From contig CARVLU010000003.1 of the NCBI GenBank assembly GCA_949082785.1, forward strand, positions 9,133 through 73,132: DNA of 64,000 nucleotides. Reading direction: 5' to 3'. The stretch's first letter is position 1, and each line of letters begins with the position of its first letter. The DNA comes from an uncultured Alphaproteobacteria bacterium. GTDB taxonomy: Bacteria > Pseudomonadota > Alphaproteobacteria > Rs-D84. The notes under the pieces were generated by a model, which saw only the letters and a program-made list of their open reading frames with translations, was not told the DNA's origin and did no database searches. The position numbers were made by a program, and so were the translations under genes. Positions 1,789 to 49,800 of this stretch are shown in pieces.

Positions 1789-1865
1789 TGGTGCGAGCAA
1801 AGGGGCTCGAACCCTCGACCTCAACCTTGGCAAGGTTGCGCTCTAGCCAACTGAGCTACGCTCGC
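1789..1865 (-). tRNA. tRNA-Gly (anticodon GCC)
   Basis: cloverleaf: acceptor GCGAGCG/TGCTCGC, D-loop AGTTGGCTA, anticodon loop TTGCCAA, T-loop TTCGAGC, encoded CCA. Confidence 0.9.
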
Positions 1866-1940
1866 ACTGCGTGGTGTATTCTGACATATCTTTTTTCAAA
1901 TTGCAAGTGTTATTTTATTGACAATTTTTATGGTTTGGAT

Positions 1941-4331
1941 ATGCTGATTTTAATGAAAAATATCCCAGACAAAAATCTTGGCAGTGCCCGAAAATCCCGC
2001 GAATTATTGATGGCGGGGTCGTATAATACACTGTTCGATAACCTGGTGTTTAATCCCCCGGCGCGATTTTTTGTCTATGCCGCACCCGATTCTGTTCATG
2101 ACATTTTTCACAGGACTTTTGACGCACTGAATAATGCCGCCACATCCATTAACCGCCATGACGCGTGGGCGTTCGACGATGTCGCCCGCATTTTGATGGG
2201 CGCCGCGAACGACATGCAGATGGACACGGCGATTAATTTCCTGGTGTCACGGTGCGCCGTGCCGGAAACGCATTTATATATCCGGCGCGCAAATGCGCCG
2301 GGGCAATTGTTCCCGACCAACCGAATTTATCTGTCGCGATACGCCATGTGCCGGGTGGCGAATTACTGGCTGGCCACAAAAATGCGGGCGGACATCGACA
2401 TGGGCCGACCCGTATTGACCGCGACGCACGCGGCGCATGACAACGGGCGCCACAAAATCCAAACGGAAATGCAATTGGCATTTGCGGCGTATTATTTCGC
2501 GTTCCCCGAAACCGATTGCGATGAAATCGCCCGCATCACATGGGACTGGGTCCGGGCAAAACCGGTTAAGCGTGCCTGGGAATCAGCGCAGAAAAATCTG
2601 ACCAATGAAATGCGGCGCATTTACGGCCGTGAATTTTCGTTTCATTTATTCGAAGAGTTTAAGCAAGAACACATTTTCAACCCGCTGTTTCGTGCACCGG
2701 GCGCCCCGTCCATTCGGGACCAGTATGCGGAAATGCTGACCACGCGGGGATTCAAACCAGACACCGGCGGCGCGCGCGGCGGATGGCGGCGCGGCCGACA
2801 AACCGCCCCCAAATACCCTGGGGGATACTTTGCGCCGCATGCGCTGTTTCTGGCGGCATGGATAACCAATCAATTTTGCGAATTCATATCCAATGAACCG
2901 GCCCCCGACCGCAACCGTACCAAATGGTTTGAATTGCGGGCAAAAAATTTCATGGCAACAATCGGCCAGGGATTGGCGGCCATGCGCCGTGATAACTCCG
3001 CGCTGCGCACGGCGCAACTGTGGGCCGCGCGCCATCACAGCGACGCGTTAAAATCCATTAATGAAATCAAACATGGCCGCGGCCACCGTAAAACCGATGA
3101 CGCAACCGGCCAAGTCATGCACGACAACCCGTCCGCGATGGAATTTTTCCGGACAAAGCATTTATTTTCCGATGACGACATGTGGTGCCTGAAATACCGG
3201 CAAAATGCCCAGCGGCGATTGGTTCAATTGCACGACGCATACCGGGCGGGACCGACATCGGAACTGGCACAAAAAATCGCAGACACAGAAACGCAAATCC
3301 GCGCGGAAAACATCACGCTGTACGATATGGATTTGGGGGGCTTTGTTGATGTGCCACACATTTTAAATGCCGATGGGCAATTTGTACCCCGCCCCGTTGT
3401 GACGCCCGTCATGGGGACACCGCATCAAACGATGACAACAGAACCAGCGGCGACGCCCGTCCACACACCACAACCCGCAATCGCGCCACATCAATACACC
3501 ATTGATTTTGATGCGGCGCCATGGGCCCCGTTTGTTATTAAATCCCCATCTAAAATCCCCGATGGCGCGCCGTTTATTCAATCAACAAATCCAACCACCG
3601 GCGCCCCGTACGTCATGTATGACACGCACGGTCAGTTTGAATCCGTCAACCCATTGCGGCCGGATTTCACGGTGCGCGACCGAATGGGGAACCCAAAAAA
3701 CAACGATGTGAATTTTGAAATGGGCAATTTCCTGTTGGAAAGCGACACCATGCCCCCCGCCGCCCAATTGGCCCAGGCGCACCGTCTGGTGGCACTGGGG
3801 GTGATTAATAAAATCGTGTGGTCTGGCAGCAAATCGTATCACATGCGCTGTACCGTGCGGCCGGCCCCACAAACGCGCGCACAGCGCAAATGGCTGTTCG
3901 CACACATTATCAATACGTATAACATCCAGGGCATCGACCCGGTATGCTGGAACAACGGGCGGTTGATGCGGCGCGCGGGGGCGACACGCCTGGTGGATGG
4001 GCGGGCGGTGACGCAAACACTGATACATCAATCTGATGCCGTTTTGGACATGGATTGGCGCCCATTATATGACGCCCACACGGCAATCCAGAAACACATG
4101 TTCGAAACCACCCACGAATTTTCACCCAAAATAAACGACCGCGTGCGCGCCATGTTGGCCCAGTGGCACGACGGCAATCGCCACAATTTATTAAACATGG
4201 GAATAATCCCCATGATGCACCACGCCGGTTGGACGGATAATCAAATTCGCGCCGCACTGATATCGGACGGCGGAAATCCGGGGCTGAACCGGACAATTGA
4301 AAAATATATCAACAATATTCGTGGGCGGTAA
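1941..4331 (+). CDS. large hypothetical protein (~797 aa) with central Pro/Thr-rich linker
   Basis: 2.4-kb uninterrupted frame with host-like composition; ORF-track frame begins inside tRNA-Gly so start placed at first ATG (1941) after the tRNA; linker PVVTPVMGTPHQTMTTEPAATPVHTPQPAIAPHQ; no recognisable domain. Confidence 0.7.
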   Translation: MLILMKNIPDKNLGSARKSRELLMAGSYNTLFDNLVFNPPARFFVYAAPDSVHDIFHRTFDALNNAATSINRHDAWAFDDVARILMGAANDMQMDTAINFLVSRCAVPETHLYIRRANAPGQLFPTNRIYLSRYAMCRVANYWLATKMRADIDMGRPVLTATHAAHDNGRHKIQTEMQLAFAAYYFAFPETDCDEIARITWDWVRAKPVKRAWESAQKNLTNEMRRIYGREFSFHLFEEFKQEHIFNPLFRAPGAPSIRDQYAEMLTTRGFKPDTGGARGGWRRGRQTAPKYPGGYFAPHALFLAAWITNQFCEFISNEPAPDRNRTKWFELRAKNFMATIGQGLAAMRRDNSALRTAQLWAARHHSDALKSINEIKHGRGHRKTDDATGQVMHDNPSAMEFFRTKHLFSDDDMWCLKYRQNAQRRLVQLHDAYRAGPTSELAQKIADTETQIRAENITLYDMDLGGFVDVPHILNADGQFVPRPVVTPVMGTPHQTMTTEPAATPVHTPQPAIAPHQYTIDFDAAPWAPFVIKSPSKIPDGAPFIQSTNPTTGAPYVMYDTHGQFESVNPLRPDFTVRDRMGNPKNNDVNFEMGNFLLESDTMPPAAQLAQAHRLVALGVINKIVWSGSKSYHMRCTVRPAPQTRAQRKWLFAHIINTYNIQGIDPVCWNNGRLMRRAGATRLVDGRAVTQTLIHQSDAVLDMDWRPLYDAHTAIQKHMFETTHEFSPKINDRVRAMLAQWHDGNRHNLLNMGIIPMMHHAGWTDNQIRAALISDGGNPGLNRTIEKYINNIRGR

Positions 4332-4339
4332 TTTGTTGC

Positions 4340-4368
4340 TTGTTTAAATTGTCAAAATCCGGTATAAT
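4340..4368 (+). promoter_or_regulatory. sigma70-type promoter (TTGTTT-17-TATAAT) of type-2 leader copy 1
   Basis: -35 at 4340-4345, 17-nt spacer, -10 TATAAT at 4363-4368; matches the same arrangement at 27446-27474. Confidence 0.55.
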
Positions 4369-4392
4369 ACATGGCATATAACCGGTTTAACT

Positions 4393-4486
4393 ATGCCTAA
4401 TGCAAAGGGACGATTAAACCCAACTTTTTTGCATTTGAAAGAATCCCCATTTTTCAGCCTTTTGTTCCTAAAAATATGGTCATTTT
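4393..4486 (+). promoter_or_regulatory. type-2 conserved 5' leader with upstream small ORF (uORF) starting ATGCCTAAT (MPNAKGRLNPTFLHLKESPFF...)
   Basis: nucleotide and codon-level conservation with 27500-27584; first 20 codons align gap-free with conservative substitutions. Confidence 0.5.
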
Positions 4487-4999
4487 ATGCCGAATCTAAA
4501 CGTCGGATTGCTTTCGACAATGTGGGGGCAGAATGCGACGGCCGTGAGTGCCGCCGATCAGGCATGCGCCAACTGCTATTGCTGTACCAATGGGACACAG
4601 TTCGCCTGCAAGGGCACATGTTATTACGACGAAAGGTGCTGTATGGGTATGATATGCCCGGAGGGACAGATTTGGGATTCCGAACAAGGAAAATGTGTTG
4701 ACGAACCCGTCGTAAAATTCTGTATGAGTGGCACCTATCCCACAGCAACCAGCTGTAAACCATGCCCGGAAACCACAGATTTTTCATCCACAAACGCCAG
4801 ATGCAGTGCATCATCCCCAGGTGGAACCATAGGTGGCAGTGCTGGCGACACAAGTATTTCACTGGGCATAGAATCGTGTTACATGCCCAAGGAATACCTA
4901 TCCCTAGAAGGCGGCGGCACATGCGAATACACCGATGTTTCTGGAACATTTGAATTTACCCGGAACTGTAACTATTCCGCACGGATTGAACTGGAATAA
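4487..4999 (+). CDS. small cysteine-rich protein, paralogous family member (C-terminal C-P-C ... CY ... GTFEFT ... CNY module)
   Basis: 170-aa ORF, 20 Cys; C-terminal module shared with 13737, 22498, 27585, 48723, 49016 genes; followed by strong terminator. Confidence 0.75.
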   Translation: MPNLNVGLLSTMWGQNATAVSAADQACANCYCCTNGTQFACKGTCYYDERCCMGMICPEGQIWDSEQGKCVDEPVVKFCMSGTYPTATSCKPCPETTDFSSTNARCSASSPGGTIGGSAGDTSISLGIESCYMPKEYLSLEGGGTCEYTDVSGTFEFTRNCNYSARIELE

Positions 5000-7973: not shown

Positions 7974-9248
7974 TTACTTAAAATTATCCCGCCACACGGC
8001 TGCCAAATCGACGTTAAAATCCGCACCCTGGGTAACAATGGACATCGGCCCATCAAAGGAACCACGCACATTTTCAATCACATCGTCCCGACGAACACTT
8101 TCCGACATCCGGGTATCGGCATCCAAATCAAAAAGCCGCCCAGAAAAACGCCAGAAGCTAATTAATTTGTCACAGCGACTGGTCGCAGATTCCATCCAAT
8201 CTGCCCGCGACAGACGATTGCGACAATTTATGCGTCGCAAATCATCGTCTGTAATTGTGTTCTGGGTATAAATTTTGTGTGCATTTTTGGCAATCAACGC
8301 CACCACACGTTCCACATTTTCCGGCGCCGTTTGGGTGTTAAAGCCCGTCAGGCCAAGTTTTTCGTTCCCGACACCGGTGCCTGAAAAACCATACACCAAT
8401 CCATTTTCCCGACGAATAATATCAAACAATTCACGGTTCATATAACGCCAGAATTTTGACACGCATTTGTTCTGGAACAGATTTTCATATGTTGCATCCC
8501 ATACGTCGGGGAACAAAATACTTAACACCACATTTTTCTTGCCCGGTTTGGAATTGTGCGCAATGGTGGGCGTGTATGTGATGCTGGCATTTTCCGGCAC
8601 ATCCAGGTTTGGCAAAAACCCAAAGGCCGTTTCTAAATGTCGCAACACGGCGTCCGCATCCAAAATACGACCCGATATGCCGATGATGCAATTATTGGCC
8701 GACAGGCGCCGCCCCAAAAATTCAATAACCCGATCACGGGTAAAAGACAGAATCAATTCTTCGGTCCCCAAGCCCCGCGTTGAAAACGTTGCATAGTTAA
8801 ACAGTTTACCGGACACAAAATCCCTATATTGTCGCTGGGAATTATCCAGGGCACGGCGCAGCTCATCAATCACAACGCGGTGTTCAATATCAATCTTGTC
8901 CGGTTCAAACAGGGCGTTTTGCAACTGGTCACTGATCACATCAATCAAAACATTAATGTTTTCAGCCAAAATGCGCCCATAAAAATACAGTCGATTATTC
9001 CCCGTGGCGGCATTATGGTTTCCCCCATGATCGTCCAGAAATTCCTGTCGTTCCTTGGACGCTGCAAACCGCGCCGTGCTGCTGCACAACATGTGTTCGC
9101 AAAAATGGGTCAGACCATATTCGGTGGGACCTTCGTCCCGGCTGCCGGTGCGAAACAGAACCTTGACAGACACGGTTTCCAAATCCATCGGGTCCAGGAT
9201 GACCGTCACACCGTTTGATAATTTATGTATGGTCGGATTGTATTGCAC
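7974..9248 (-). CDS. M16 family zinc peptidase (pitrilysin-like, HxxEH)
   Basis: HFCEHM inverted zinc motif; ORF track extends to 9353 (TTG) but GTG at 9248 preceded by GGGGGG SD and 10 nt after upstream gene stop gives the typical M16 N-terminus (VQYNPTIHKLSNGVTV). Confidence 0.8.
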   Translation of the reverse strand: MQYNPTIHKLSNGVTVILDPMDLETVSVKVLFRTGSRDEGPTEYGLTHFCEHMLCSSTARFAASKERQEFLDDHGGNHNAATGNNRLYFYGRILAENINVLIDVISDQLQNALFEPDKIDIEHRVVIDELRRALDNSQRQYRDFVSGKLFNYATFSTRGLGTEELILSFTRDRVIEFLGRRLSANNCIIGISGRILDADAVLRHLETAFGFLPNLDVPENASITYTPTIAHNSKPGKKNVVLSILFPDVWDATYENLFQNKCVSKFWRYMNRELFDIIRRENGLVYGFSGTGVGNEKLGLTGFNTQTAPENVERVVALIAKNAHKIYTQNTITDDDLRRINCRNRLSRADWMESATSRCDKLISFWRFSGRLFDLDADTRMSESVRRDDVIENVRGSFDGPMSIVTQGADFNVDLAAVWRDNFK

Positions 9249-9258
9249 CAAAGCCCCC

Positions 9259-9663
9259 CTATCGCATATGGGCCCGGTCCGCCATCGCCATTTGCGCGGT
9301 GCGCACGCGCTGTAATTCCATTTGCATTTGGGCATATAAACGCTGTAATTCAATCACGCGGCGGCCCATCGTGAACGTCGCGGTTTCCAGTGTTTGGCGG
9401 TCTTGACGCATCGTATCAACTTGTGCCTGCAACTGACTGATTTGTCTTTGGATTTTATCAAATTTTGCTTGTTGCATTGCATAATCTTTTTTACCACCCA
9501 AATACTGATTGTTTGTGTGCATAAACTTTGTAATCGCGTCCTGGGCCGTTTTGGATTTGACGACCATCGTGCCGTATTTCAGTGCCGCCCGGCGGCCCGC
9601 CGGGGTGCGCAAAAACCGCGCCAGTAATTTCGGATTGGCCAACAAACGTAACAATACCTGCAT
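9259..9663 (-). CDS. hypothetical coiled-coil protein (134 aa)
   Basis: ATG at 9663 immediately after queA stop; Q/R-rich coiled-coil C-terminus; the 169-aa ORF-track version overlaps queA and is rejected. Confidence 0.55.
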   Translation of the reverse strand: MQVLLRLLANPKLLARFLRTPAGRRAALKYGTMVVKSKTAQDAITKFMHTNNQYLGGKKDYAMQQAKFDKIQRQISQLQAQVDTMRQDRQTLETATFTMGRRVIELQRLYAQMQMELQRVRTAQMAMADRAHMR

Positions 9664-13497: not shown

Positions 13498-13705
13498 CGA
13501 ATTCATTAGATTGGATTCGGGACGTCGAAAATCCCTTATTAGTCCGGCAGAAATGTCGTTAAAACATTATGGCTTTTGCCATTTCCCCGACACCAGGTCG
13601 GGTTGTTGCGGTTATACAACAGGATTTATCCGAAAACCGCAAGGTCATTGACTAATATGATTTTTCGAACTTCCCGACCACCAATATTTTGGTGGTTTTT
13701 GTTTA
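13498..13705 (+). promoter_or_regulatory. type-1a structured leader RNA (copy A) ending in intrinsic terminator GACCACCAATATTTTGGTGGTTTTT
   Basis: ~85% identical blocks with 22271-22484; 5' segment CGGGACGTCGAAAATC can pair with GATTTTTCGAACTTCCCG adjoining the terminator; conserved internal hairpins. Confidence 0.6.
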
Positions 13706-13736
13706 ACAAAAAAACAAAAGAAGGAAATGAAAAATC

Positions 13737-14192
13737 ATGAAAAAGCTGACAACATGTATTGCACTGGCCGCGATTTGCAGCCCCGCGCTGGGTATCGTCA
13801 CCAATCCCGACCTGTTGGCATGTTTATGCGATGATGCACTGACACCATCGGTCCCCCAGGGTTCATATTGTCCGGACGGAACATACTGTCCATATAAATG
13901 TCCGGGCTGCACCAATATCAATTGGACATCATCATCAACCGGGTATGAATCACGCATAAGGGCCACATGCGATATTTATTCAGGCAACTGTAACAAAACC
14001 ACCGAATATCGTTGCGCAGCCGGATATTACGGCAATACGTTAAATGGCAATTCCGGATGTTCGGCATGCCCCAGGGGCGGCACGTCCCCCGCCGGCAGCA
14101 AGTCCATAACATCATGCTATCTGCCCAATGGGACATCTGGGACCGACAGCACCGGCAGTTATGTTTATACATCAGATTGCTATTACAATTAA
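13737..14192 (+). CDS. secreted cysteine-rich protein, family member (signal peptide MKKLTTCIALAAICSPALG)
   Basis: 151 aa, 18 Cys; YRCAAGYYGN...SGCSACP...SCYLP...GSYVYTSDCYY shared module. Confidence 0.8.
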   Translation: MKKLTTCIALAAICSPALGIVTNPDLLACLCDDALTPSVPQGSYCPDGTYCPYKCPGCTNINWTSSSTGYESRIRATCDIYSGNCNKTTEYRCAAGYYGNTLNGNSGCSACPRGGTSPAGSKSITSCYLPNGTSGTDSTGSYVYTSDCYYN

Positions 14193-22270: not shown

Positions 22271-22484
22271 TGAATCCACGGTTGTGGGTTCGGGACTTCG
22301 AAAATCCCTTATCTGGTCGACATATTGTGTATGTCGTTATTTTGTGCGCGGCGCCTTGCCACGCCCCCCGACATTGGTCGGGTTGTTGCAGTTATACAAC
22401 AGGGGCATCGCCCCAAAGGCTGCAAGGTCATTATCAGATATGATTTTTCGAACTTCCCGACCACCAGATTCTGGTGGTTTTCTT
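22271..22484 (+). promoter_or_regulatory. type-1a structured leader RNA (copy B) ending in terminator GACCACCAGATTCTGGTGGTTTT
   Basis: homologous to 13498-13705 including GGGTTCGGGACTTCGAAAATCCC, GGTCGGGTTGTTGCAGTTATACAACAGG, GCAAGGTCATT, GATTTTTCGAACTTCCCGACCACC. Confidence 0.6.
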
Positions 22485-22497
22485 TGATAACCAAAGG

Positions 22498-23109
22498 ATG
22501 GAAGAAGTGAAGAAAATCAAACAAATAGGTAAAGTCTGGATAATGCTGACGCTGGTCATTATCCCCGGCGTGGCACGGGCGCTGTTGGTGCCACCGGTGG
22601 GCGAATGCGTGGGCGGCACATGCCCCAGCGATGGGCAATATATTGATGGCATCATGTACGGATGCGGGCGTGCAACGGAATGTTACTGCGTCAACAGTGA
22701 CGGCGAAGGAATCAATGTTCCCTGTGGATGCTTTGGCGACGCGGATTGCAAAACCAGCGGTTACGGATGTATTAACGGCCAATGCGCAAAATGCCGCAGT
22801 TGTACAAATTGTACCAGCAGCAACACCTGGGATTCTGTCGCCACCGGGTATCAACGCCGGACCACAAAAACATGTGGGTGTGACGGGACATGCAACACGT
22901 CATATTCTTACCGATGCGCACCCGGATATTTCGGCAACAGTTATAACGGCACATCGGGATGCACGCGTTGCCCGACCGACGGGGGCGTTACCGGGACATC
23001 TGTGGCGGGAACAACCGCACGAACGGGATGCTATGTCGGGGCAAACACGACGGGCCGCGATAATTCCGGGGCGTTTGAATTTACCGGAAATTCTTATTAT
23101 TGTGACTAA
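22498..23109 (+). CDS. secreted cysteine-rich protein, family member (signal peptide MEEVKKIKQIGKVWIMLTLVIIPGVARA)
   Basis: AAGGA SD 5 nt upstream; 28 Cys; CTNCTSSNTWDSVATGYQRR...YRCAPGYFGN...SGCTRCP...GAFEFTGNSYYCD shared module. Confidence 0.8.
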   Translation: MEEVKKIKQIGKVWIMLTLVIIPGVARALLVPPVGECVGGTCPSDGQYIDGIMYGCGRATECYCVNSDGEGINVPCGCFGDADCKTSGYGCINGQCAKCRSCTNCTSSNTWDSVATGYQRRTTKTCGCDGTCNTSYSYRCAPGYFGNSYNGTSGCTRCPTDGGVTGTSVAGTTARTGCYVGANTTGRDNSGAFEFTGNSYYCD

Positions 23110-24140: not shown

Positions 24141-24445
24141 ATATGCCCGACATAGATATTGACAATCTGCCCGGGACGCCATTCCAACGCGATGTATGGC
24201 GCGCATTAACACAAATACCGCGCGGTGAAACGCGCACATACGCCGAATTGGCCGCCATGGCGGGCCATCCGACGGCAATCCGTGCGGTGGCCAATGCGGT
24301 TGGCAAAAATCCCATGCCGCCCATCATTCCATGTCACCGCATTATCCGCAGTGACGGCAAAATCGGTGGATATTCCGCCCCGGGCGGCATCGCGACCAAG
24401 CGGCACCTGTTGCAAACCGAAGGCGTCAAATTCCCCGATTTTTAA
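24137..24445 (+). CDS. methylated-DNA--protein-cysteine methyltransferase family protein (DNA-binding/active-site domain only)
   Basis: IPCHRI active-site motif (PCHR), TYAELA HTH; start overlaps upstream stop (ATGA). Confidence 0.8.
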   Translation: MNMPDIDIDNLPGTPFQRDVWRALTQIPRGETRTYAELAAMAGHPTAIRAVANAVGKNPMPPIIPCHRIIRSDGKIGGYSAPGGIATKRHLLQTEGVKFPDF

Positions 24446-24720
24446 GTCAACGGGCATATATCTTCAAAGCGCCAGACACCCGTATCATCACTGTATTCAG
24501 TATCGGCCGGTGCGAACATCATGCACACCCCGGCGGGCGTTGGCAATAAACAGCTGACCGCGTCACCCGCACTGCTGTATCCGGTGGGGCACGCGCCATC
24601 GACGACAATCATAGCTGATTCATTAATCGCGACATAGCCGGACGGGCAACTGGTTCCGGGCGCCGCCGCCATCACAGACGTTGAAACGATTATACCCACC
24701 AATAAACACACCAAACGCAT
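24442..24720 (-). CDS. small secreted cysteine-containing protein (distinct from main family)
   Basis: 92 aa, signal peptide MRLVCLLVGIIVSTSVMAAA, 6 Cys. Confidence 0.55.
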   Translation of the reverse strand: MRLVCLLVGIIVSTSVMAAAPGTSCPSGYVAINESAMIVVDGACPTGYSSAGDAVSCLLPTPAGVCMMFAPADTEYSDDTGVWRFEDICPLT

Positions 24721-24722
24721 CC

Positions 24723-25148
24723 TTAATCACCCAAATTGGAAAATAAAATTGCTTGGAAATCGGTGGATGCCGCTGCAAAAGTTGCACAGTTCCGCGCACA
24801 AGATTGAGCACAATTATACGCCGATTCCCTATCTTCCAAATACACCCAAGACGATACAGCGGGTGTAACAATTTTACACCAACAATACCGATTATTCTCA
24901 CTGGTGGTACTGATCTTAACTGTATCCGATATGGCACCTATTCTGTTGCTCTTTTGGCTTCCACAAAACATAACGCCATTTATCTGAATCTTATTACAAC
25001 TAAATGTCCAGTTAGATTGGCCCAATGCCACTGCCTGATTATACGAACAATTCGCACTGGGCGTTAATTTAACACATTTTGTTGCGGCATGTACGGATGA
25101 CGTTGCCGCCATTAATCCCGCAGTAAAACACAACAAATAAATTTTCAT
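24723..25148 (-). CDS. small secreted cysteine-containing protein
   Basis: signal peptide MKIYLLCFTAGLMAATSSVHA, 10 Cys; GGGGGGA SD upstream; 3-nt gap to downstream gene. Confidence 0.55.
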   Translation of the reverse strand: MKIYLLCFTAGLMAATSSVHAATKCVKLTPSANCSYNQAVALGQSNWTFSCNKIQINGVMFCGSQKSNRIGAISDTVKISTTSENNRYCWCKIVTPAVSSWVYLEDRESAYNCAQSCARNCATFAAASTDFQAILFSNLGD

Positions 25149-25214
25149 TTTGTTCGCAATCCCCCCATTTTTTGCCGCAATTAACCGGTGGTTTAGATTA
25201 GGCAATTTTTCCGT

Positions 25215-25243
25215 TTGACACACGCCCAGAAATTGTATATTTT
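25215..25243 (+). promoter_or_regulatory. orphan consensus promoter TTGACA-17-TATATT on + strand (no CDS downstream before terminator at 25372)
   Basis: perfect -35 with 17-nt spacer; would give a ~150-nt transcript ending at the 25372-25397 terminator. Confidence 0.3.
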
Positions 25244-25371
25244 TACATCAATTCATCAGGAATAAATACCGCCAAATTAATCGACCGATTATTTTAGCGG
25301 TGCTTTTTTATGCCACGCGCCCTGGATTTTCGGGGGACACAACCCTGTGCATGCGGCACAGATAAAACAAC

Positions 25372-26679: not shown

Positions 26680-27453
26680 ATGAAAATAAATCAAGCGTTC
26701 ACAATCTTGCAATCGGCCGGCGGTATTCGCGCGGCGCGCATCATTACAAACAAATTTAAAAATCCGTCTACAATCCGTGTGTTATGGATGGCGCGTCAAT
26801 TGCGCCGCGGTGTGCCGGTGGCAAAAATCATCCATGAAAAATGGTTTTATGGCCTGGCGTTTTACACGAACAGATTCACATTGGACCCGCGGCCCGATAC
26901 AGAAACACTGGTGTCGGCGGTTATCACCGATTGCGCGGATGCAACGGCGCGCCGCATTTTAGATTTGGGCACCGGGACCGGTTGCGTTCTGGGGGCATTG
27001 GTCAAAAATATTGCGGGCACATCCGGCGTCGGCATTGACCGGTCACTGGGCGCCGTGCGCGTTGCACGCCGCAATATGCGGACACTGGGGCTGGATAAGA
27101 ATACAACAATTTTATGGCGCAGTTTTAACACACCGCAAATGCCCGGTGCGCCGTTTGACATAATTGTATCAAATCCGCCATACATCGCACATGGTGACAC
27201 CCGCGTCAACGACGCCGCACGACACGACCCGGCGGCGGCGCTGTATGCCGCAAACAACGGATTTGGGGCGTACGAAAAAATTTCACAAAACGCACGCACA
27301 TGGTTGCGCCCGGGCGGACGGATTTATCTGGAAATCGGGGCGGACATGGGGACAATGGTGCGTGAAATCTTTGCCCGCACGGGATGGACGTTTGTGCGGG
27401 CCGAATCCGATTTGGGCGGTATCCAACGCGTGCTGGTTTTTACACTTGCATAA
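26680..27453 (+). CDS. prmC: release factor glutamine N5-methyltransferase PrmC (HemK)
   Basis: LDLGTGTGC SAM motif, NPPY catalytic motif. Confidence 0.85.
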   Translation: MKINQAFTILQSAGGIRAARIITNKFKNPSTIRVLWMARQLRRGVPVAKIIHEKWFYGLAFYTNRFTLDPRPDTETLVSAVITDCADATARRILDLGTGTGCVLGALVKNIAGTSGVGIDRSLGAVRVARRNMRTLGLDKNTTILWRSFNTPQMPGAPFDIIVSNPPYIAHGDTRVNDAARHDPAAALYAANNGFGAYEKISQNARTWLRPGGRIYLEIGADMGTMVREIFARTGWTFVRAESDLGGIQRVLVFTLA

Positions 27454-27474
27454 AATCCGGTAATGCGATATAAT
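27446..27474 (+). promoter_or_regulatory. sigma70 promoter TTGCAT-17-TATAAT of type-2 leader copy 2
   Basis: consensus hexamers, overlaps prmC stop. Confidence 0.55.
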
Positions 27475-27499
27475 TTGGGGCATCGGATGGGGTGAATAT

Positions 27500-27580
27500 A
27501 TGCCTAGTCCAAGGGAACGATTACAATCCCCATACGTGTTTTTGAAAAAATCCCCATTTTCTGCCCCCTGTTGTTTATGA
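27500..27580 (+). CDS. conserved upstream small ORF / leader peptide candidate (MPSPRERLQSPYVFLKKSPFSAPCCL)
   Basis: 26 codons; first 20 codons align gap-free with 4393-4452 uORF; TGA stop 4 nt before main ATG. Confidence 0.4.
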   Translation: MPSPRERLQSPYVFLKKSPFSAPCCL

Positions 27581-27584
27581 TTTT

Positions 27585-28061
27585 ATGCCGAATCCAATCG
27601 TTGGTTTTTGTGTCATGCAAATACCCCAAACAACGCGGTCGGCATGGGCCGCCAATAACTCATGCAGCACAACCATATGTACAAATTCCACCCAGTCCGG
27701 TGTGCCATATGGCCATAATTGCAGAACCAGCCAAACTGTCTGTGACGGGAACATAGGATATCGTTCATGCGTAACATGTGACCGTGCCGTATCCACCCCG
27801 GACCAGATGATAGGCGCCGAATTGTCCGGTTGCAGTGGGGTGTTCATGACATATTCAACATGCAAATGCTTAAAAGGCTATTATTCCAGTGCCGAAAAGT
27901 GTGTTCGATGCCCGGCGGATGCCGATGGCAATTATGGCACCACCGCGGCGGCAGGCGACACAACCCGACCAACAGACTGTTACCTGACGCGCGCCACAGA
28001 ATACCAGGATGACAGCGGGTCATATTCTTACACCCAAAACTGTTATTACAGCAACGGTTAG
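27585..28061 (+). CDS. cysteine-rich protein, family member (no classical signal peptide)
   Basis: 158 aa, 16 Cys; CKCLKGYYSSAEKCVRCP...DCYL...GSYSYTQNCYYSNG shared C-terminal module. Confidence 0.75.
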   Translation: MPNPIVGFCVMQIPQTTRSAWAANNSCSTTICTNSTQSGVPYGHNCRTSQTVCDGNIGYRSCVTCDRAVSTPDQMIGAELSGCSGVFMTYSTCKCLKGYYSSAEKCVRCPADADGNYGTTAAAGDTTRPTDCYLTRATEYQDDSGSYSYTQNCYYSNG

Positions 28062-48136: not shown

Positions 48137-48348
48137 GCCCGAACGTGTTGTTTGGGCGGGGCCTCATAACCTCTGATTTAGGCGTCGGAATTCATTCAAA
48201 TGGCGGGCCACGCGCACCCATTTTATGATGCAGACGAAAATAAAACTCCTGATTTTCCGGTCAGGAGGGTTGTGGAATATCAAATACGCAACGCAATTCC
48301 TAAAAATTGTTATGAGCCTCCTGACCACCAATTTGTTGGTGGTTTTTG
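48137..48348 (+). promoter_or_regulatory. type-1b structured leader RNA (copy C) with antiterminator/terminator alternative pairing and terminator CCTGACCACCAATTTGTTGGTGGTTTTT
   Basis: CTCCTGA/TCAGGAGG hairpin; GGTCAGGAGG can alternatively pair CCTCCTGACC overlapping terminator 5' arm; hairpin GTTGTGG-AATATCAAATAC-GCAAC. Confidence 0.6.
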
Positions 48349-48372
48349 CTTTGTACCACAGGAGGTTTTCAT

Positions 48373-48708
48373 ATGAAGCAACATTTAACAGTCGCCCTGG
48401 TGGCCATACCCATTTGGGCGGCGACATTACCCCACGGCATGGCCGCATGCCAAAGCATGATTCAATGCCGGCAATCCGCGGGCAACAATTGCAACTGTTG
48501 TCCGACCGGGACATCCGAAACACAATACACGTGCCCCGACGGATGGGATGCCCGCGGCAGCCAATGTTACCGGGACGCAACCCGTTCATCGGACAGCATC
48601 GGATACACCGAAACCACATACGGCACATGCGCCGGAACGGCGGGCGGCTTTGTCCAATGCTACAAAGCCCAATGCGGAAACCCGATTCCAAACTGCAAGC
48701 TTTTATAA
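48373..48708 (+). CDS. secreted cysteine-rich protein (N-module-type), family member
   Basis: GGAGG SD; signal peptide MKQHLTVALVAIPIWAATLPHGMAA; 14 Cys; ends 14 nt before next gene. Confidence 0.7.
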   Translation: MKQHLTVALVAIPIWAATLPHGMAACQSMIQCRQSAGNNCNCCPTGTSETQYTCPDGWDARGSQCYRDATRSSDSIGYTETTYGTCAGTAGGFVQCYKAQCGNPIPNCKLL

Positions 48709-49015: not shown

Positions 49016-49600
49016 CTATTGAATATAATAGCAATCCTGGGTGAACGTGAAACTGCCCGCGGAATCTGCCCCATTGTTCCCGGCCGCCAGATAACATGAT
49101 GTAATCGCGGTGGCCCCGGGGGCGGACGTGGCATTCATATTATGGGCGGGCGAACACTGCGTACATCCCGACGTGCCGTTGGTGGTCGTGCCCCAATAAC
49201 CGGCCGCGCATCTGTATTCCCACGATGTTTTGCATGTATTGCAATCACACCGCCGCATGGCCCGCCGTTCATATCCCGCACCCCCCGCCGACCAAGTGGC
49301 GTCACTGACACAATTGCTGCACCCGGTACAGGATTTTTCACAAACGCTGTATTCATAACTGCATCCGGTTTTGCTGTCATACCCCGTTTTTTCAACCAAA
49401 GTAAAACCGGTGCGACATGTGCGACATGTGGTCACCCGTTCCCCGTTCATGCACCCCAATGTCGTTCCATCGGAACATCCAAATATAATGGGCATCTGGC
49501 CGTCATCCGTGCAATGTTCCCATGAACACACCAGTGCATGCGCGCCGCGCACCAACATCAGATTCATCCCCGCAGCAATAACCGCAGCATATAATTTCAT
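49016..49600 (-). CDS. secreted cysteine-rich protein, family member
   Basis: AAAGGAG SD; signal peptide MKLYAAVIAAGMNLMLVRGAHA; CSNCVSDATWSAGGAGYERR...YRCAAGYWGT...SGCTQCS...GSFTFTQDCYYIQ closely parallels 22498 gene. Confidence 0.8.
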   Translation of the reverse strand: MKLYAAVIAAGMNLMLVRGAHALVCSWEHCTDDGQMPIIFGCSDGTTLGCMNGERVTTCRTCRTGFTLVEKTGYDSKTGCSYEYSVCEKSCTGCSNCVSDATWSAGGAGYERRAMRRCDCNTCKTSWEYRCAAGYWGTTTNGTSGCTQCSPAHNMNATSAPGATAITSCYLAAGNNGADSAGSFTFTQDCYYIQ

Positions 49601-49604
49601 TCAA

Positions 49605-49800
49605 ACACTCCTTTTTTCTTCAACGAATGAAAAAGCCACCAAAATTCAGGTGGCAGGAGGTTCGAAACTATCTGTAAAAAATAGCAGTGTGCTTTCAATA
49701 TATAACACACTCCCCCTGCCCGCATAAAGACAGGGTCGCTTTACGTCCGCCGACGTTTACAGAAGGGTTTCGACGCCCCGACATCGGAATTCCCGATGCT
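49605..49800 (-). promoter_or_regulatory. type-1b leader RNA copy D (minus strand) with terminator GCCACCTGAATTTTGGTGGCTTTTT
   Basis: 5' CGGGAATTCCGATGTCGGGGCGTCGAAACCC resembles copies A/B; hairpin GTGTG-TTATATATTGAAAG-CACAC; AGTTTCGAACCTCCTGCCACC before terminator. Confidence 0.55.

What the first reader, a model, noticed from the sequence alone, without database searches (positions are those of the whole stretch)
4340..4486. Type-2 leader with a conserved upstream small ORF (MPNAKGRLNPTFLHLKESPFF / MPSPRERLQSPYVFLKKSPFS) before two cysteine-rich genes
Two loci are clearly homologous at the nucleotide level: 4340-4486 and 27446-27584. Each carries a consensus sigma70 promoter (TTGTTT or TTGCAT, 17-nt spacer, TATAAT) followed by an ATG-initiated upstream small ORF (uORF). 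The first 20 codons of the two uORFs align without gaps and change mostly conservatively (K/R, N/S, F/Y, L/V, E/K). That pattern fits peptide-level selection.

In the second copy the uORF ends at TGA only 4 nt before the main ATG (TGATTTTATG), which is set up for translational coupling. In the first copy the uORF frame runs on into the main gene.

Both the uORF and the main ORF begin ATGCC[TG]AAT (MPN/MPS). The two downstream proteins lack a classical signal peptide.

This looks like a leader-peptide-based attenuation or stalling mechanism, distinct from the type-1 RNA leaders.
Basis: seen in the sequence. Interest (0 to 1): 0.7.

Follow-up and report, generated by a model that had tools for sequence, protein, structure and literature searches.

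The report
Shared gene leader with upstream mini-ORF
Secreted cysteine-rich protein genes in uncultured gut Alphaproteobacteria share a promoter-plus-leader module containing a short upstream reading frame that copies the gene's own start, and this module is conserved as nucleotide sequence and RNA pairing rather than as a peptide.

Summary
The two loci are truly homologous (71% over 122 nt, E 1e-8), although the proteins they precede are only 26% identical. I recovered 20 copies of this leader from at least four related assemblies.

- In every relative the upstream ORF stops after 8-15 codons, before the "KSPF" motif. That stretch stays conserved as nucleotides.
- The two window uORFs differ in 12 of 21 codons, none synonymously.
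- No reading frame shows excess synonymous change (uORF frame 17 syn / 58 nonsyn, p=0.49).
- There is no terminator and no Shine-Dalgarno sequence to unmask.

What is conserved:
- a -35/17 nt/TATAAT promoter;
- an upstream ATG (19/20 copies) whose first 24 nt are a direct repeat of the main start;
- a fixed 84/85-nt spacing between the two starts (94 in copy A);
- a 5' hairpin that includes the upstream ATG;
- a long-range pairing between uORF codons 6-8 and main-ORF codons 4-6, with compensatory changes in three lineages.

Best reading (about 0.4): an RNA leader that controls SD-less translation initiation. The mini-ORF acts by its position, not its peptide. No Rfam family matches. The element is a new variant of a known kind and of moderate interest.

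The parts
4340..4368 (+). Promoter of copy A: -35 TTGTTT (4340-4345), 17-nt spacer, -10 TATAAT (4363-4368).
   Evidence: Read directly. It is positionally conserved in all leader copies. The homologous promoters in relatives score 10/12. The window copy has only 3/6 in the -35 and was not flagged.
4373..4397 (+). 5'-proximal hairpin H1 of copy A. GGCATA (4373-4378) pairs with TATGCC (4392-4397), so the upstream ATG lies in the 3' arm.
   Evidence: The 5' segment folds better than controls with a shuffled UTR in 16/16 leaders (mean z -1.85). Copy A itself is weak: -5.9 kcal/mol, z -1.07.
4393..4416 (+). Upstream copy of the start region (DR1): ATG plus the first 8 codons, ATGCCTAATGCAAAGGGACGATTA. 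Positions 4409-4415 (GACGATT) form the 5' arm of long-range helix H4.
   Evidence: It matches the main start at 16/24 positions in A. The mean over 17 leaders is 15.1/24, against a control mean of 6.0 and a 99th percentile of 11.
4393..4701 (+). uORF as it reads in this genome (102 codons, overlapping the main ORF out of frame). Only the first 8 codons are shared with relatives.
4438..4459 (+). Conserved pyrimidine-rich block AAAGAATCCCCATTTTTCAGCC in a G-poor tract.
   Evidence: Block alignment. C/G is 1.7-4.0 in the leader versus 0.5-1.6 in the CDS. Its apparent invariance is partly built into my search patterns: copies found independently (L047, L048, the L045 divergent copy) carry changes.
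4487..4510 (+). Main start region (DR2): ATGCCGAATCTAAACGTCGGATTG, with no Shine-Dalgarno sequence upstream. Positions 4498-4504 (AAACGTC) form the 3' arm of H4.
   Evidence: The H4 duplex in A is -6.0 kcal/mol and has one A.A mismatch.
4487..4999 (+). Gene A: a 170-aa cysteine-rich protein with a signal-peptide-like N-terminus.
   Evidence: Strain variants show 0 differences in 4330-4570 and 14-16 differences in 4571-4999.
27446..27474 (+). Promoter of copy B: TTGCAT, 17-nt spacer, TATAAT.
27500..27523 (+). DR1 of copy B: ATGCCTAGTCCAAGGGAACGATTA. Positions 27516-27522 (AACGATT) form the H4 5' arm and carry the G->A half of a compensatory pair.
27500..27580 (+). uORF of copy B (26 codons), with its TGA 4 nt before the main ATG. 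In the close relatives L025 and L042 it is cut to 8 codons by CAA->TAA.
27545..27568 (+). Pyrimidine-rich block AAAAAATCCCCATTTTCTGCCCCC of copy B.
27585..27608 (+). DR2 of copy B: ATGCCGAATCCAATCGTTGGTTTT. Positions 27596-27602 (AATCGTT) form the H4 3' arm and carry the C->T half of the compensatory pair.
   Evidence: In strain contig L032 homology to the window ends at 27611, immediately 3' of this block.
27585..28061 (+). Gene B: a 158-aa cysteine-rich protein, 26% identical to A.
25150..25260 (-). A related relic. TTGCCTAATCTAAAC (25191-25205) is an exact match to the start motif. It lies in frame 19 codons upstream of the SD-bearing start of gene 24723-25150.

Best explanation
The feature is a portable 5' expression module of about 170 nt, used by a multigene family of secreted, fast-diverging cysteine-rich proteins. 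Its parts, in order, are:
- a strong sigma-70-type promoter;
- a 5' UTR of about 105 nt;
- an SD-less main start (AUG, UUG or GUG);
- the first ~8 codons of a signal peptide.

The 'uORF' is the upstream member of a tandemly duplicated start region. It has the same AUGCCNAAUYYAAU context as the real start and sits 84/85 nt before it.

The leader acts as RNA.
- Nucleotides 1-12 of the mini-ORF form the 3' arm of a 5'-proximal hairpin (H1).
- Nucleotides 17-23 pair over a long range with codons 4-6 of the main ORF (H4). In some copies A-rich/U-rich pairing extends H4 so that it covers the main start.

My inference is that H4 damps initiation at the SD-less main start. Ribosomes that load at the upstream AUG and translate 8-15 codons would melt H1 and H4, then terminate in the AU-rich spacer 40-60 nt upstream of a pyrimidine-rich, G-poor tract. 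That would open the main start or hand ribosomes on to it. On this view the mini-ORF works through its position and its translation, not through its peptide.

What is shown: homology, the duplicated start, the fixed spacing, the lack of peptide-level constraint, H1 stability above controls, and H4 covariation.

What is inferred: that the mini-ORF is translated, that H4 represses the main start, and which way the switch goes.
For: - **Leader more conserved than the genes.** The leader is 71-75% identical between A and B while the proteins are 26% identical. Strain variants have 0 changes in 4330-4570 and 14-16 in 4571-4999.
- **Copy number.** There are 20 leader copies: 5 in GCA_029059055.1, metagenome copies found with a pattern that did not include the uORF, one divergent copy found by nhmmer, and two found through protein search.
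- **Start codons.** The upstream ATG is present in 19/20 copies. The main start varies: ATG in 10, TTG in 9, GTG in 1.
- **Spacing.** The two starts are 84/85 nt apart in 19 copies and 94 nt apart in A.
- **Direct repeat.** uORF and main start share 15.1/24 positions on average, against a control mean of 6.0 and a 99th percentile of 11.
- **H1.** The 5' segment is more stable than shuffled-UTR controls in 16/16 leaders, mean z -1.85. The 5' arm binds the uORF start (-7 to -18 kcal/mol) more strongly than the main start in most copies (the window's two copies are exceptions), and its binding to the main start is near the shuffled-arm level in most copies.
- **H4.** Four of the 7 core pairs carry changes on both sides (8 cells). 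None of 500 shuffles reaches the observed pair count or covariation score (0.172 vs 0.051). The compensations are in three separate lineages: B-type G-C->A-U; L048 A-U->U-A; and the L045 divergent copy, where CGCUGGUUU/AAACCAGCG gives 9 perfect pairs at -16.6 kcal/mol.
- **No SD.** Neither start has a Shine-Dalgarno sequence, although other genes of the family have AGGAG-type SDs.
- **Composition.** The tract before the main start is G-poor and T-rich, with C/G of 1.7-4.0.
Against: - No transcription or translation data exist for these uncultured organisms.
- Whole-leader folding energies are not better than shuffles (z -1.5 to +2.0; the window's B is +2.0).
- H4 has a central A.A or U.U mismatch in 8 of 19 copies and is weak in the window's own copies (-6.0 and -6.8 kcal/mol).
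- Complementarity of the extended arms is significant in only about 6 of 19 copies and absent in A and B.
- The slide +3 control for H4 also gives 74% 'paired' cells, largely through G.U pairs.
- Predicted accessibility is similar for the upstream start (0.39) and the main start (0.41).
- The uORF has no SD and its ATG sits inside H1.
- One copy (L047, 3.3x coverage) has ACG in place of the upstream ATG.
- The uORF stop position is unconstrained (8 to 102 codons). In A the uORF would carry ribosomes through the main start out of frame.
- H4 could equally be a DNA inverted repeat.
Confidence: 0.4

Rival explanations
1. The leader is untranslated. The upstream ATG is only part of the RNA or protein-recognition sequence. 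H1 acts as a 5'-terminal stabilising stem-loop, and the pyrimidine-rich single-stranded tract is a landing pad for ribosomal protein S1 or for a family-specific RNA-binding regulator or sRNA. On this view the mini-ORF is incidental.
For: - No frame shows coding-type substitution.
- The mini-ORF's first 8 codons are almost fully accounted for by the arms of H1 and H4.
- Neither start has an SD.
- The stop position is unconstrained.
- One copy has ACG.
- The tract is G-poor and pyrimidine-rich.
- The block AAAAATCCCCATTTTCTGCCCC is highly conserved.
Against: - The upstream ATG is kept in 19/20 copies, including copies where it is not paired with CAU in H1 (L015, L016, L019). The homologous first base of the main start toggles freely between A, T and G.
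- The upstream start has the same sequence context as a start that must be functional.
- Invariance of the C/U block is partly an ascertainment effect of my search patterns (versus 47, 80, 81).
Confidence: 0.27
2. The module is a DNA-level element. The direct repeats (WTGCCKAATYYAAW) and the inverted repeat (GACGATT...AATCGTC) are either operator sites for a transcription factor placed in helical phase, or homology arms that promote recombination and swap gene bodies behind a common promoter.
For: - Spacings of 84/85 and 94 nt are close to 8 and 9 helical turns.
- H4 covariation fits a DNA inverted repeat equally well.
- Leader type and gene body are shuffled: a B-type leader sits on an A-type protein in L025.
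- L032 is identical to the window up to 27610 and then becomes a different gene.
- The syntenic ortholog of A carries the leader type of its own genome's paralogs.
- A relic of the start motif lies at 25191-25205.
Against: - The repeats are short (7-14 bp), and no recombinase or regulator gene is consistently adjacent.
- Operators 25-110 bp downstream of the start site are unusual.
- Recombination at conserved sequence is expected anyway and needs no dedicated site.
- H1 complementarity to the transcript's 5' end points to RNA.
Confidence: 0.13
3. A conserved leader peptide (MPNxxGRL...KSPF) stalls the ribosome or mediates attenuation, and the stall controls the downstream gene.
For: - The upstream ATG and an open frame of at least 8 codons are present in 19/20 copies.
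- The N-terminal MP(N/S/K)x(M/K/R)(G/E)RL is recognisable in all canonical copies (the divergent L045 copy reads MPNLNAGL and L048 ends in F).
- In B the uORF stop is 4 nt from the main ATG.
Against: - The frame closes after 8-15 codons in all relatives.
- The 'KSPF' region is conserved whether or not it is read (B versus L025).
- Synonymous change is 17 versus 58 nonsynonymous, 0.23 against 0.22 expected, p=0.49.
- A and B differ at 12 codons, none synonymously.
- Four-fold degenerate sites in codons 4, 6 and 7 are invariant (a single change in codon 7) while replacement sites vary.
- There is no terminator, no SD to unmask, and no run of regulatory codons.
Confidence: 0.05
4. The conservation reflects a small antisense gene. 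A 17-codon ORF on the opposite strand (MGI[F/L]...IVPL[D/H]*, window 4397-4450 and 27504-27557, minus strand) starts at the complement of CAT in CCCCATTTT. A GGGG/GGAG element 6 nt upstream (AAGG at 7 nt in window copy A) looks like an SD.
For: - This ORF is open for at least 17 codons in 17/17 canonical leaders, and the divergent L045 copy has a 20-codon ORF ending at the same TAG.
- The IVPL codons show only third-position differences between leader types.
Against: - There is no excess of synonymous change in that frame: 17/58, p=0.38.
- There is no three-base periodicity.
- The stop is lost in 7/17 copies, giving arbitrary extensions of 27 to 133+ residues.
- In L048 the frame and the ATG are not preserved.
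- No antisense promoter was detected.
Confidence: 0.05

Closest known systems
Translational attenuation leaders of ermC/ermB and cat/cmlA (leader ORF overlapping an RNA helix that masks the downstream start).
   Same: A short ORF in the 5' leader overlaps one arm of a pairing whose other arm lies in the translation-initiation region of the regulated gene. A ribosome in the leader ORF would open that pairing.
   Different: - There is no conserved arrest peptide here.
- The leader ORF has no fixed length.
- No SD is sequestered, because none exists.
- The masked segment is codons 4-6 of the gene rather than the SD and start.
- No inducer is implied.
- Membership was tested and is not met.
Long-range, translation-dependent unmasking of a downstream start (MS2 coat/replicase 'Min Jou' interaction; rpmI-rplT coupling in the IF3-L35-L20 operon). 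This comparison is from my own knowledge.
   Same: A distant upstream coding segment base-pairs with the initiation region of a downstream cistron, so that translating the upstream segment activates the downstream one.
   Different: In those systems the upstream cistron is a real protein gene. Here it is an 8-15-codon, sequence-unconstrained duplicate of the downstream start, and the helix is only 7-9 bp.
Rho-dependent leader attenuators with a short leader ORF followed by a C-rich, G-poor tract (tnaC-tnaA, mgtL-mgtA, corL-corA). This comparison is from my own knowledge.
   Same: A mini-ORF is followed by an unstructured tract with C>G (C/G 1.7-4.0) ahead of the structural gene.
   Different: The tract is short, about 60 nt. 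There is no evidence for Rho involvement, and the leader peptide carries no sensing codons such as the Trp or Pro codons of those systems.
5'-terminal stabiliser hairpins such as the ompA 5' UTR, and SD-independent, S1-dependent initiation on U-rich leaders such as rpsA. This comparison is from my own knowledge.
   Same: A hairpin is predicted within a few nucleotides of the likely 5' end. The start lacks an SD and is preceded by a U/C-rich, poorly structured tract.
   Different: The transcription start has not been mapped. The hairpin contains a start codon. The module also has a duplicated start and a long-range helix.
Multigene families with conserved 5' regions and hypervariable mature proteins (Giardia VSPs; conotoxin precursors).
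   Same: The promoter, leader and signal-peptide start are far more conserved than the cysteine-rich mature part. Weak, sub-threshold Pfam hits to Giardia VSP and Ephrin_rec_like were found. Leader and gene body appear recombined.
   Different: This is a bacterial family. No switching or expression-site mechanism has been shown, and the protein-family hits fall below the curated cut-offs.

Membership tests
Leader-peptide transcription attenuators (trp/his/leu/phe type) | The leader ORF is enriched in codons for the regulatory amino acid. | tested here: not met
   The uORF peptides (MPNPMGRLSCT and similar) have no tandem regulatory codons. Most have a single Cys, and A has none in its first 20 codons.
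Leader-peptide transcription attenuators (trp/his/leu/phe type) | An intrinsic terminator with an alternative antiterminator lies between the leader ORF and the gene. | tested here: not met
   No terminator-like site occurs in 4369-4486 or 27475-27584. The only lenient hit in a relative is the small GGGAC/GUCCU hairpin, which has no U-run. No Rfam leader family matches at E<=10.
Ribosome-arrest leader peptides (ErmCL/ErmBL, CatA86L/CmlAL, SecM, MifM, TnaC, SpeFL) | The peptide sequence is conserved under amino-acid-level selection, with an arrest motif at a fixed position. | tested here: not met
   - Only 8 codons are shared, and length varies over 8/11/13/15/26/102 codons.
- Synonymous/nonsynonymous counts are 17/58 against 0.22 expected, p=0.49.
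- A and B show 0 synonymous among 12 differing codons.
Ribosome-arrest leader peptides (ErmCL/ErmBL, CatA86L/CmlAL, SecM, MifM, TnaC, SpeFL) | The SD and start of the regulated gene are sequestered in a hairpin that the stalled ribosome opens. | tested here: inconclusive
   No SD exists. A long-range helix to main codons 4-6 has covariation support, but it is weak in A and B, and the main start is about 41% unpaired in the predicted ensembles.
Termination-reinitiation coupling (uORF stop overlapping or abutting the main start) | The uORF stop codon lies within a few nucleotides of the main start in members of the family. | tested here: not met
   This holds only for B-lineage copies of the window's species (TGA, 4 nt, ATG). 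In 15 distinct relatives the stop lies roughly 35-60 nt upstream, and in A it lies 212 nt downstream of the main ATG.
Rho-dependent leader attenuators (tnaC, mgtL, corL type) | A C-rich, G-poor, unstructured rut-like tract follows the leader ORF. | tested here: met
   The leader from uORF codon 9 to the main start has C/G of 1.7-4.0 and 5-13% G, versus a CDS C/G of 0.5-1.6. This is a compositional match only.
Rho-dependent leader attenuators (tnaC, mgtL, corL type) | Premature termination depends on Rho and is modulated by ribosome position. | not testable with these tools
   This needs transcript mapping or bicyclomycin experiments.
Any curated RNA family (Rfam 15) | A covariance-model match at or near the gathering score. 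| tested here: not met
   There is no hit on 4340-4520 or 27446-27620 at the gathering threshold or at E<=10.
Sec-type signal peptide (for the downstream proteins) | A positively charged n-region, a hydrophobic h-region and an AXA cleavage site. | tested here: inconclusive
   By reading the sequences, an h-region and an AXA site are present in most type-2 proteins, but none has K/R before the h-region. No signal-peptide predictor was available.
Sigma-70 promoter | -35 and -10 hexamers with 16-18 nt spacing, conserved in position. | tested here: met
   TATAAT is perfect in nearly all copies (TTATAAT in the divergent L045 copy). The -35 is TTG-type at 16-17 nt. Relatives score 10/12. The window copies have only 3/6 in the -35.

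The most novel reading that the evidence does not exclude
The duplicated, SD-less start is a dedicated ribosome-loading device. Ribosomes initiate at the invariant upstream AUG, translate a throw-away 8-15-codon ORF that unzips a long-range helix, terminate in an AU-rich spacer, and are passed across a pyrimidine tract to an SD-less AUG/UUG/GUG start. This would be a family-specific initiation pathway for a recombining, Giardia-VSP-like repertoire of secreted cysteine-rich proteins in gut Alphaproteobacteria. The conserved module would also serve as the homology arm for swapping gene bodies.
Probability: 0.15. Interest if true: 0.65.

Novelty: new variant of a known kind. Interest (0 to 1): 0.42.

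Why it matters
If the model is right, this is a compact, uncatalogued cis-regulatory leader with three linked properties:
- It shows how a bacterial gene family can be translated from SD-less AUG/UUG/GUG starts.
- It uses a duplicated start codon as the moving part.
- It is a natural case where a uORF matters through position rather than peptide.

It also marks a large, fast-evolving repertoire of secreted cysteine-rich proteins in uncultured mouse-gut-type Alphaproteobacteria. The common promoter and leader of that repertoire appear to be exchanged between gene bodies, which bears on host interaction and surface or secretome variation.

For annotation, the result warns that conserved small ORFs in paralogous leaders can be by-products of nucleotide-level constraint. 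One public gene call already reads through this leader (P0005).

Tried and rejected
- **Programmed +1 frameshift or ribosome hopping to fuse the uORF to the main ORF.** Rejected. The frame relation is 0 in some copies and +1 in others, early stops intervene, and there are no matching take-off and landing codons.
- **Cysteine-sensing attenuation.** Rejected. Most uORFs have at most one Cys codon, and A has none in its first 20 codons.
- **Intrinsic terminator formed by GGGA...UCCCC followed by AUUUU.** Not detected. The loop is 26 nt and the U-tract only 4-5 nt.
- **A globally stable RNA fold.** Rejected. Folding z-scores range from -1.5 to +2.0.
- **RNAalifold's first long-range helix (UGCC..AUCCAA with UUGGGU..GGCA).** It did not hold up across the wider set on inspection.
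- **Distal hairpin GGG/GAUU with AAUC/CCC.** It is 96% paired but shows no covariation, and the B-type G->A change breaks it while being compensated in H4.
- **Antisense 17-codon ORF.** Considered in detail and down-weighted.
- **CsrA-type GGA sites.** No second conserved GGA is present.
- **CtrA or integron attC-like sites.** They do not fit by inspection.
- **Rfam.** Nothing matches the type-2 leader.
- **Protein homology searches.** They returned very few relatives. Pfam gave only sub-threshold hits.
- **Literature.** A search for the gene family found nothing.
- **Technical failures.** My first dinucleotide-shuffle script hung. One alignment of type-1 leaders was mis-registered and is uninformative.
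Full report
**1. The observation**

The two loci are homologous.
- A self-BLAST of the window aligns 4392-4509 with 27499-27607 at 71.3% identity over 122 nt (E=1.2e-8). No third copy turns up, and a profile search agrees.
- The proteins behind the two leaders are 170 aa (4487-4999) and 158 aa (27585-28061). They are only 26% identical.
- The leader is therefore much better conserved than the genes it precedes.

The ORFs are as described.
- uORF A is 4393-4701 (102 codons) and runs out of frame into the gene.
- uORF B is 27500-27580 (26 codons), with TGA, four bases, then the main ATG.

The promoter hexamers are at the stated positions, with perfect TATAAT and 17-nt spacers. The -35 elements match TTGACA at only 3 of 6 positions, so the scan tool did not flag them. 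The homologous promoters in relatives score 10/12, and many copies lie directly after the terminator of the preceding gene.

**2. Source organism and further copies**

Protein A occurs on contigs from many metagenome samples and in the MAG GCA_948584795.1. Its only detectable homolog (62% identity) is the syntenic gene of another Alphaproteobacteria MAG, GCA_029059055.1.

I collected 20 leader copies in four ways.
- A DNA pattern built from two conserved blocks found five copies in GCA_029059055.1, against about eleven chance hits elsewhere.
- A second pattern deliberately left out the uORF. It used only the pyrimidine block and the main start. It found 20 true hits among 23 in metagenome contigs.
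- nhmmer on the fetched loci found one divergent copy, at L045:2500-2680.
- A profile protein search found two more on short contigs, L047 and L048.

All 20 copies precede members of one family of cysteine-rich, apparently secreted proteins.
- These proteins share little beyond a C-terminal C..G[YF]Y...C..CP...CY...D..G.Y....CYY module.
- They give only sub-threshold Pfam hits, to Ephrin_rec_like and to Giardia VSP.

**3. Test of the peptide hypothesis**

- In every copy outside the window's own species the upstream ORF ends after 8, 11, 13 or 15 codons. That is inside the AT-rich 26-nt spacer and before the 'KSPF' stretch.
- The nucleotides that would encode 'KSPF...' remain conserved all the same.
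- B and its close relatives L025 and L042 form a natural experiment. A single CAA->TAA change ends the ORF at codon 8, yet the next 53 nt differ at only 3 positions.
- The frame relation between the uORF and the main ORF is 0 in some copies and +1 in others. This rules out recoding that fuses the two.

The substitution pattern gives no coding signal.
- Within the window, 12 of the 21 aligned codons differ and none of these differences is synonymous. The differences fall 7:6:5 over the three codon positions.
- Along a minimum spanning tree of 14 distinct leaders, the uORF frame shows 17 synonymous and 58 nonsynonymous changes. The synonymous fraction is 0.23 against 0.22 expected (p=0.49), and 15 of the changes create or remove stops.
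- No other frame on either strand does better, and there is no three-base periodicity.

The leader also lacks the machinery of the proposed mechanisms. It has no intrinsic terminator, no Shine-Dalgarno sequence on the sense strand, and no match to any Rfam family, even at E<=10.

**4. What is conserved**

- *The upstream ATG.* It is present in 19 of 20 copies. The exception is ACG in L047, a contig with 3.3x coverage. The main start, by contrast, is ATG in 10 copies, TTG in 9 and GTG in 1.
- *A direct repeat.* The first 24 nt of the uORF repeat the first 24 nt of the main ORF. Mean identity is 15.1/24, against a control mean of 6.0 and a 99th percentile of 11. Both starts also follow a GATTT-type U-rich stretch.
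  - In the divergent L045 copy the upstream ORF reads MPNLNAGL..., which is the main-ORF type. The main ORF there reads MPNLNQRLPCA..., which is the uORF type.
  - A relic of the same motif lies in frame upstream of the SD-bearing gene at 24723-25150.
  - The uORF is therefore the upstream half of a duplicated start region.
- *The spacing.* The two starts are 84 or 85 nt apart in 19 copies and 94 nt apart in A.
- *Hairpin H1.* The first ~35 nt of the predicted transcript fold into a hairpin whose 3' arm is the upstream ATG plus codons 2-4.
  - This segment is more stable than shuffled-UTR controls in 16 of 16 leaders, with mean z -1.85.
  - The 5' arm prefers the upstream start to the main start.
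- *Helix H4.* Nucleotides 17-23 of the uORF (GACGAUU) are complementary to nucleotides 12-18 of the main ORF (AAUCGUC).
  - Across 17 distinct sequences, 4 of the 7 core pairs show changes on both sides. None of 500 shuffles reaches the observed values.
  - The compensations lie in three separate lineages. B-type copies have G-C->A-U. L048 has A-U->U-A. The divergent L045 copy has a quite different sequence, CGCUGGUUU/AAACCAGCG, that still forms nine perfect pairs (-16.6 kcal/mol).
- *Composition.* The tract between the uORF and the main start is G-poor and pyrimidine-rich, with C/G of 1.7-4.0.

**5. Caveats**

- The apparent invariance of AATCCCCATTTT, GGNACGATT and the main-start block among the first 17 copies is partly built into my search patterns. 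The three copies found by other routes carry changes in these blocks.
- Whole-leader folding is no better than shuffles (z -1.5 to +2.0). The window's B copy is less structured than random sequence.
- H4 has a central mismatch in 8 of 19 copies and is weak in the window's A and B, at -6.0 and -6.8 kcal/mol.
- Complementarity of the extended arms is significant in about a third of copies only.
- Predicted accessibility is similar for the two starts, 0.39 versus 0.41.
- The H4 slide +3 control is also high, through G.U pairs.

**6. Mechanism**

I commit to an RNA-level leader that sets or regulates initiation at an SD-less start.

H1 and H4 both use the mini-ORF sequence, and H4 reaches into the ribosome-binding window of the main ORF. 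The upstream AUG has the same context as the functional start and is better conserved than that start. I therefore infer that ribosomes do load there. Their passage through 8-15 codons would open H4, and it may also deliver ribosomes to the main start. The peptide itself is irrelevant on this view. I put this at about 0.4.

The rivals, with my estimates, are:
- an untranslated leader that binds a protein, S1 or an sRNA (0.27);
- a DNA-level operator or recombination module (0.13);
- the original arrest-peptide idea (0.05);
- an antisense 17-codon ORF with a good SD-like motif (0.05). That ORF is open in 17/17 canonical copies, but it shows no coding signal, loses its stop in 7 copies and is not preserved in L048.

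**7. Evolutionary context**

- The leader and the first ~8 codons behave as a portable module.
- A second strain has no differences in 4330-4570 but 14-16 differences in 4571-4999.
- Contig L032 is identical to the window from 27300 to 27610 and then continues as a different gene, found elsewhere behind another B-type leader.
- A B-type leader sits on an A-type protein in L025.
- The syntenic ortholog of gene A carries the leader variant typical of its own genome's paralogs.
- Recombination at the conserved block, combined with rapid divergence of the mature proteins, explains why the leader is so much more similar than the genes.

**8. Comparison with known systems, and novelty**

The logic resembles erm/cat translational attenuation and long-range translational unmasking of the MS2 and rpmI-rplT kind. 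The defining features of the attenuator and arrest-peptide families were tested and are not met. The Rho-attenuator resemblance rests on composition alone.

I class the element as a new variant of a known kind, namely a uORF-containing 5' leader. It is confined so far to a narrow clade of uncultured gut Alphaproteobacteria. Interest is moderate at 0.42.

Noticed in passing
window ~13505-13736 (+), ~22290-22540 (+), ~49601-49800 (-), ~48140-48345 (+): These are the 'type-1' leaders in front of other genes of the same cysteine-rich family. They are about 200 nt long. Each has a GGGACGUCGAAAAUCCC hairpin near the 5' end, a 3' segment (GAUUUUUCGAACUUCCCGACC) complementary to that 5' end, and an ACCACC...GGUGGUUUUU intrinsic terminator before an SD-bearing start. 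This is a riboswitch-like attenuator layout. The small GGGA...UCCC hairpin resembles the one inside the type-2 mini-ORF. Rfam gives sub-threshold hits to RF02221 sRNA-Xcc1: 13596-13687 at E=7.8e-4 and 41 bits (gathering score 53), plus 49644-49720 and 22376-22470.
   Followed up: partly
window 25150-25260 (-), upstream of gene 24723-25150 (-): TTGCCTAATCTAAACCACCGGTTAATTGCGGCA is an exact match to the type-2 start motif. It lies in frame 19 codons upstream of a normal SD-plus-ATG start (MKIYLL...). It looks like a decayed type-2 start left in front of a gene that acquired its own start and signal peptide. AAAAAATGGGGGGATT there is close to the reverse complement of the type-2 AATCCCCATTTT block.
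   Followed up: partly
window 27585-27611; locus L032 (ERZ778514 contig): Another strain is identical to the window from 27300 to 27610. From 27611 (codon 9 of gene B) it carries an unrelated gene, the same gene that sits behind a B-type leader in L042. This places a recombination breakpoint at the 3' edge of the conserved start block.
   Followed up: partly
window 4330-4999; loci L027, L030, L046: Strain variants have no differences in the promoter, the leader and the first 84 nt of gene A (4330-4570), but 14-16 differences in the remaining 429 nt (4571-4999). Several of these are amino-acid changes, which suggests diversifying pressure on the mature protein.
   Followed up: partly
window 4397-4450 (-) and 27504-27557 (-): An antisense 17-codon ORF (MGILSNAKKLGLIVPLH*, MGIFSKTRMGIVIVPLD*) starts at the complement of CAT in CCCCATTTT and is preceded by an SD-like GGGG/AAGG 6-7 nt upstream. 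It is open in all 17 canonical leaders. It shows no coding-type substitution pattern, its stop is often lost, and it is not preserved in L048.
   Followed up: yes
window 1789-4331: A 796-877-aa ORF (1698/1941-4331, +) with no Pfam match lies between tRNA-Gly (1789-1865, -) and leader A. In the syntenic locus of GCA_029059055.1 the tRNA is followed directly by the leader (L007 ~9170-9346). This suggests an insertion next to the tRNA gene in the window's species, or a deletion in the other genome.
   Followed up: no
window 13737-14192, 22474-23109, 24442-25223 (-), 48346-48708, 49016-49600 (-), 4487-4999, 27585-28061: At least eight genes in 64 kb encode small cysteine-rich, signal-peptide-bearing proteins of one loose family. 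They give only sub-threshold similarity to Ephrin_rec_like (GCC2/GCC3-type) repeats and to Giardia variant-specific surface protein. The same protein subtype can sit behind a type-1 leader in one genome and a type-2 leader in another, for example window 48346 versus L016.
   Followed up: partly
locus L047 (ENA ERZ14208403 contig), protein P0005: A public gene call starts at an ATG in the 5' UTR and reads through the whole leader into the main ORF (MILVRLIQWDDYPVHVTKIKNPHFLPPLAYEL-MPILIVGLG...). This is probably an annotation artefact of the open +1 frame. The same copy has ACG in place of the upstream ATG.
   Followed up: partly
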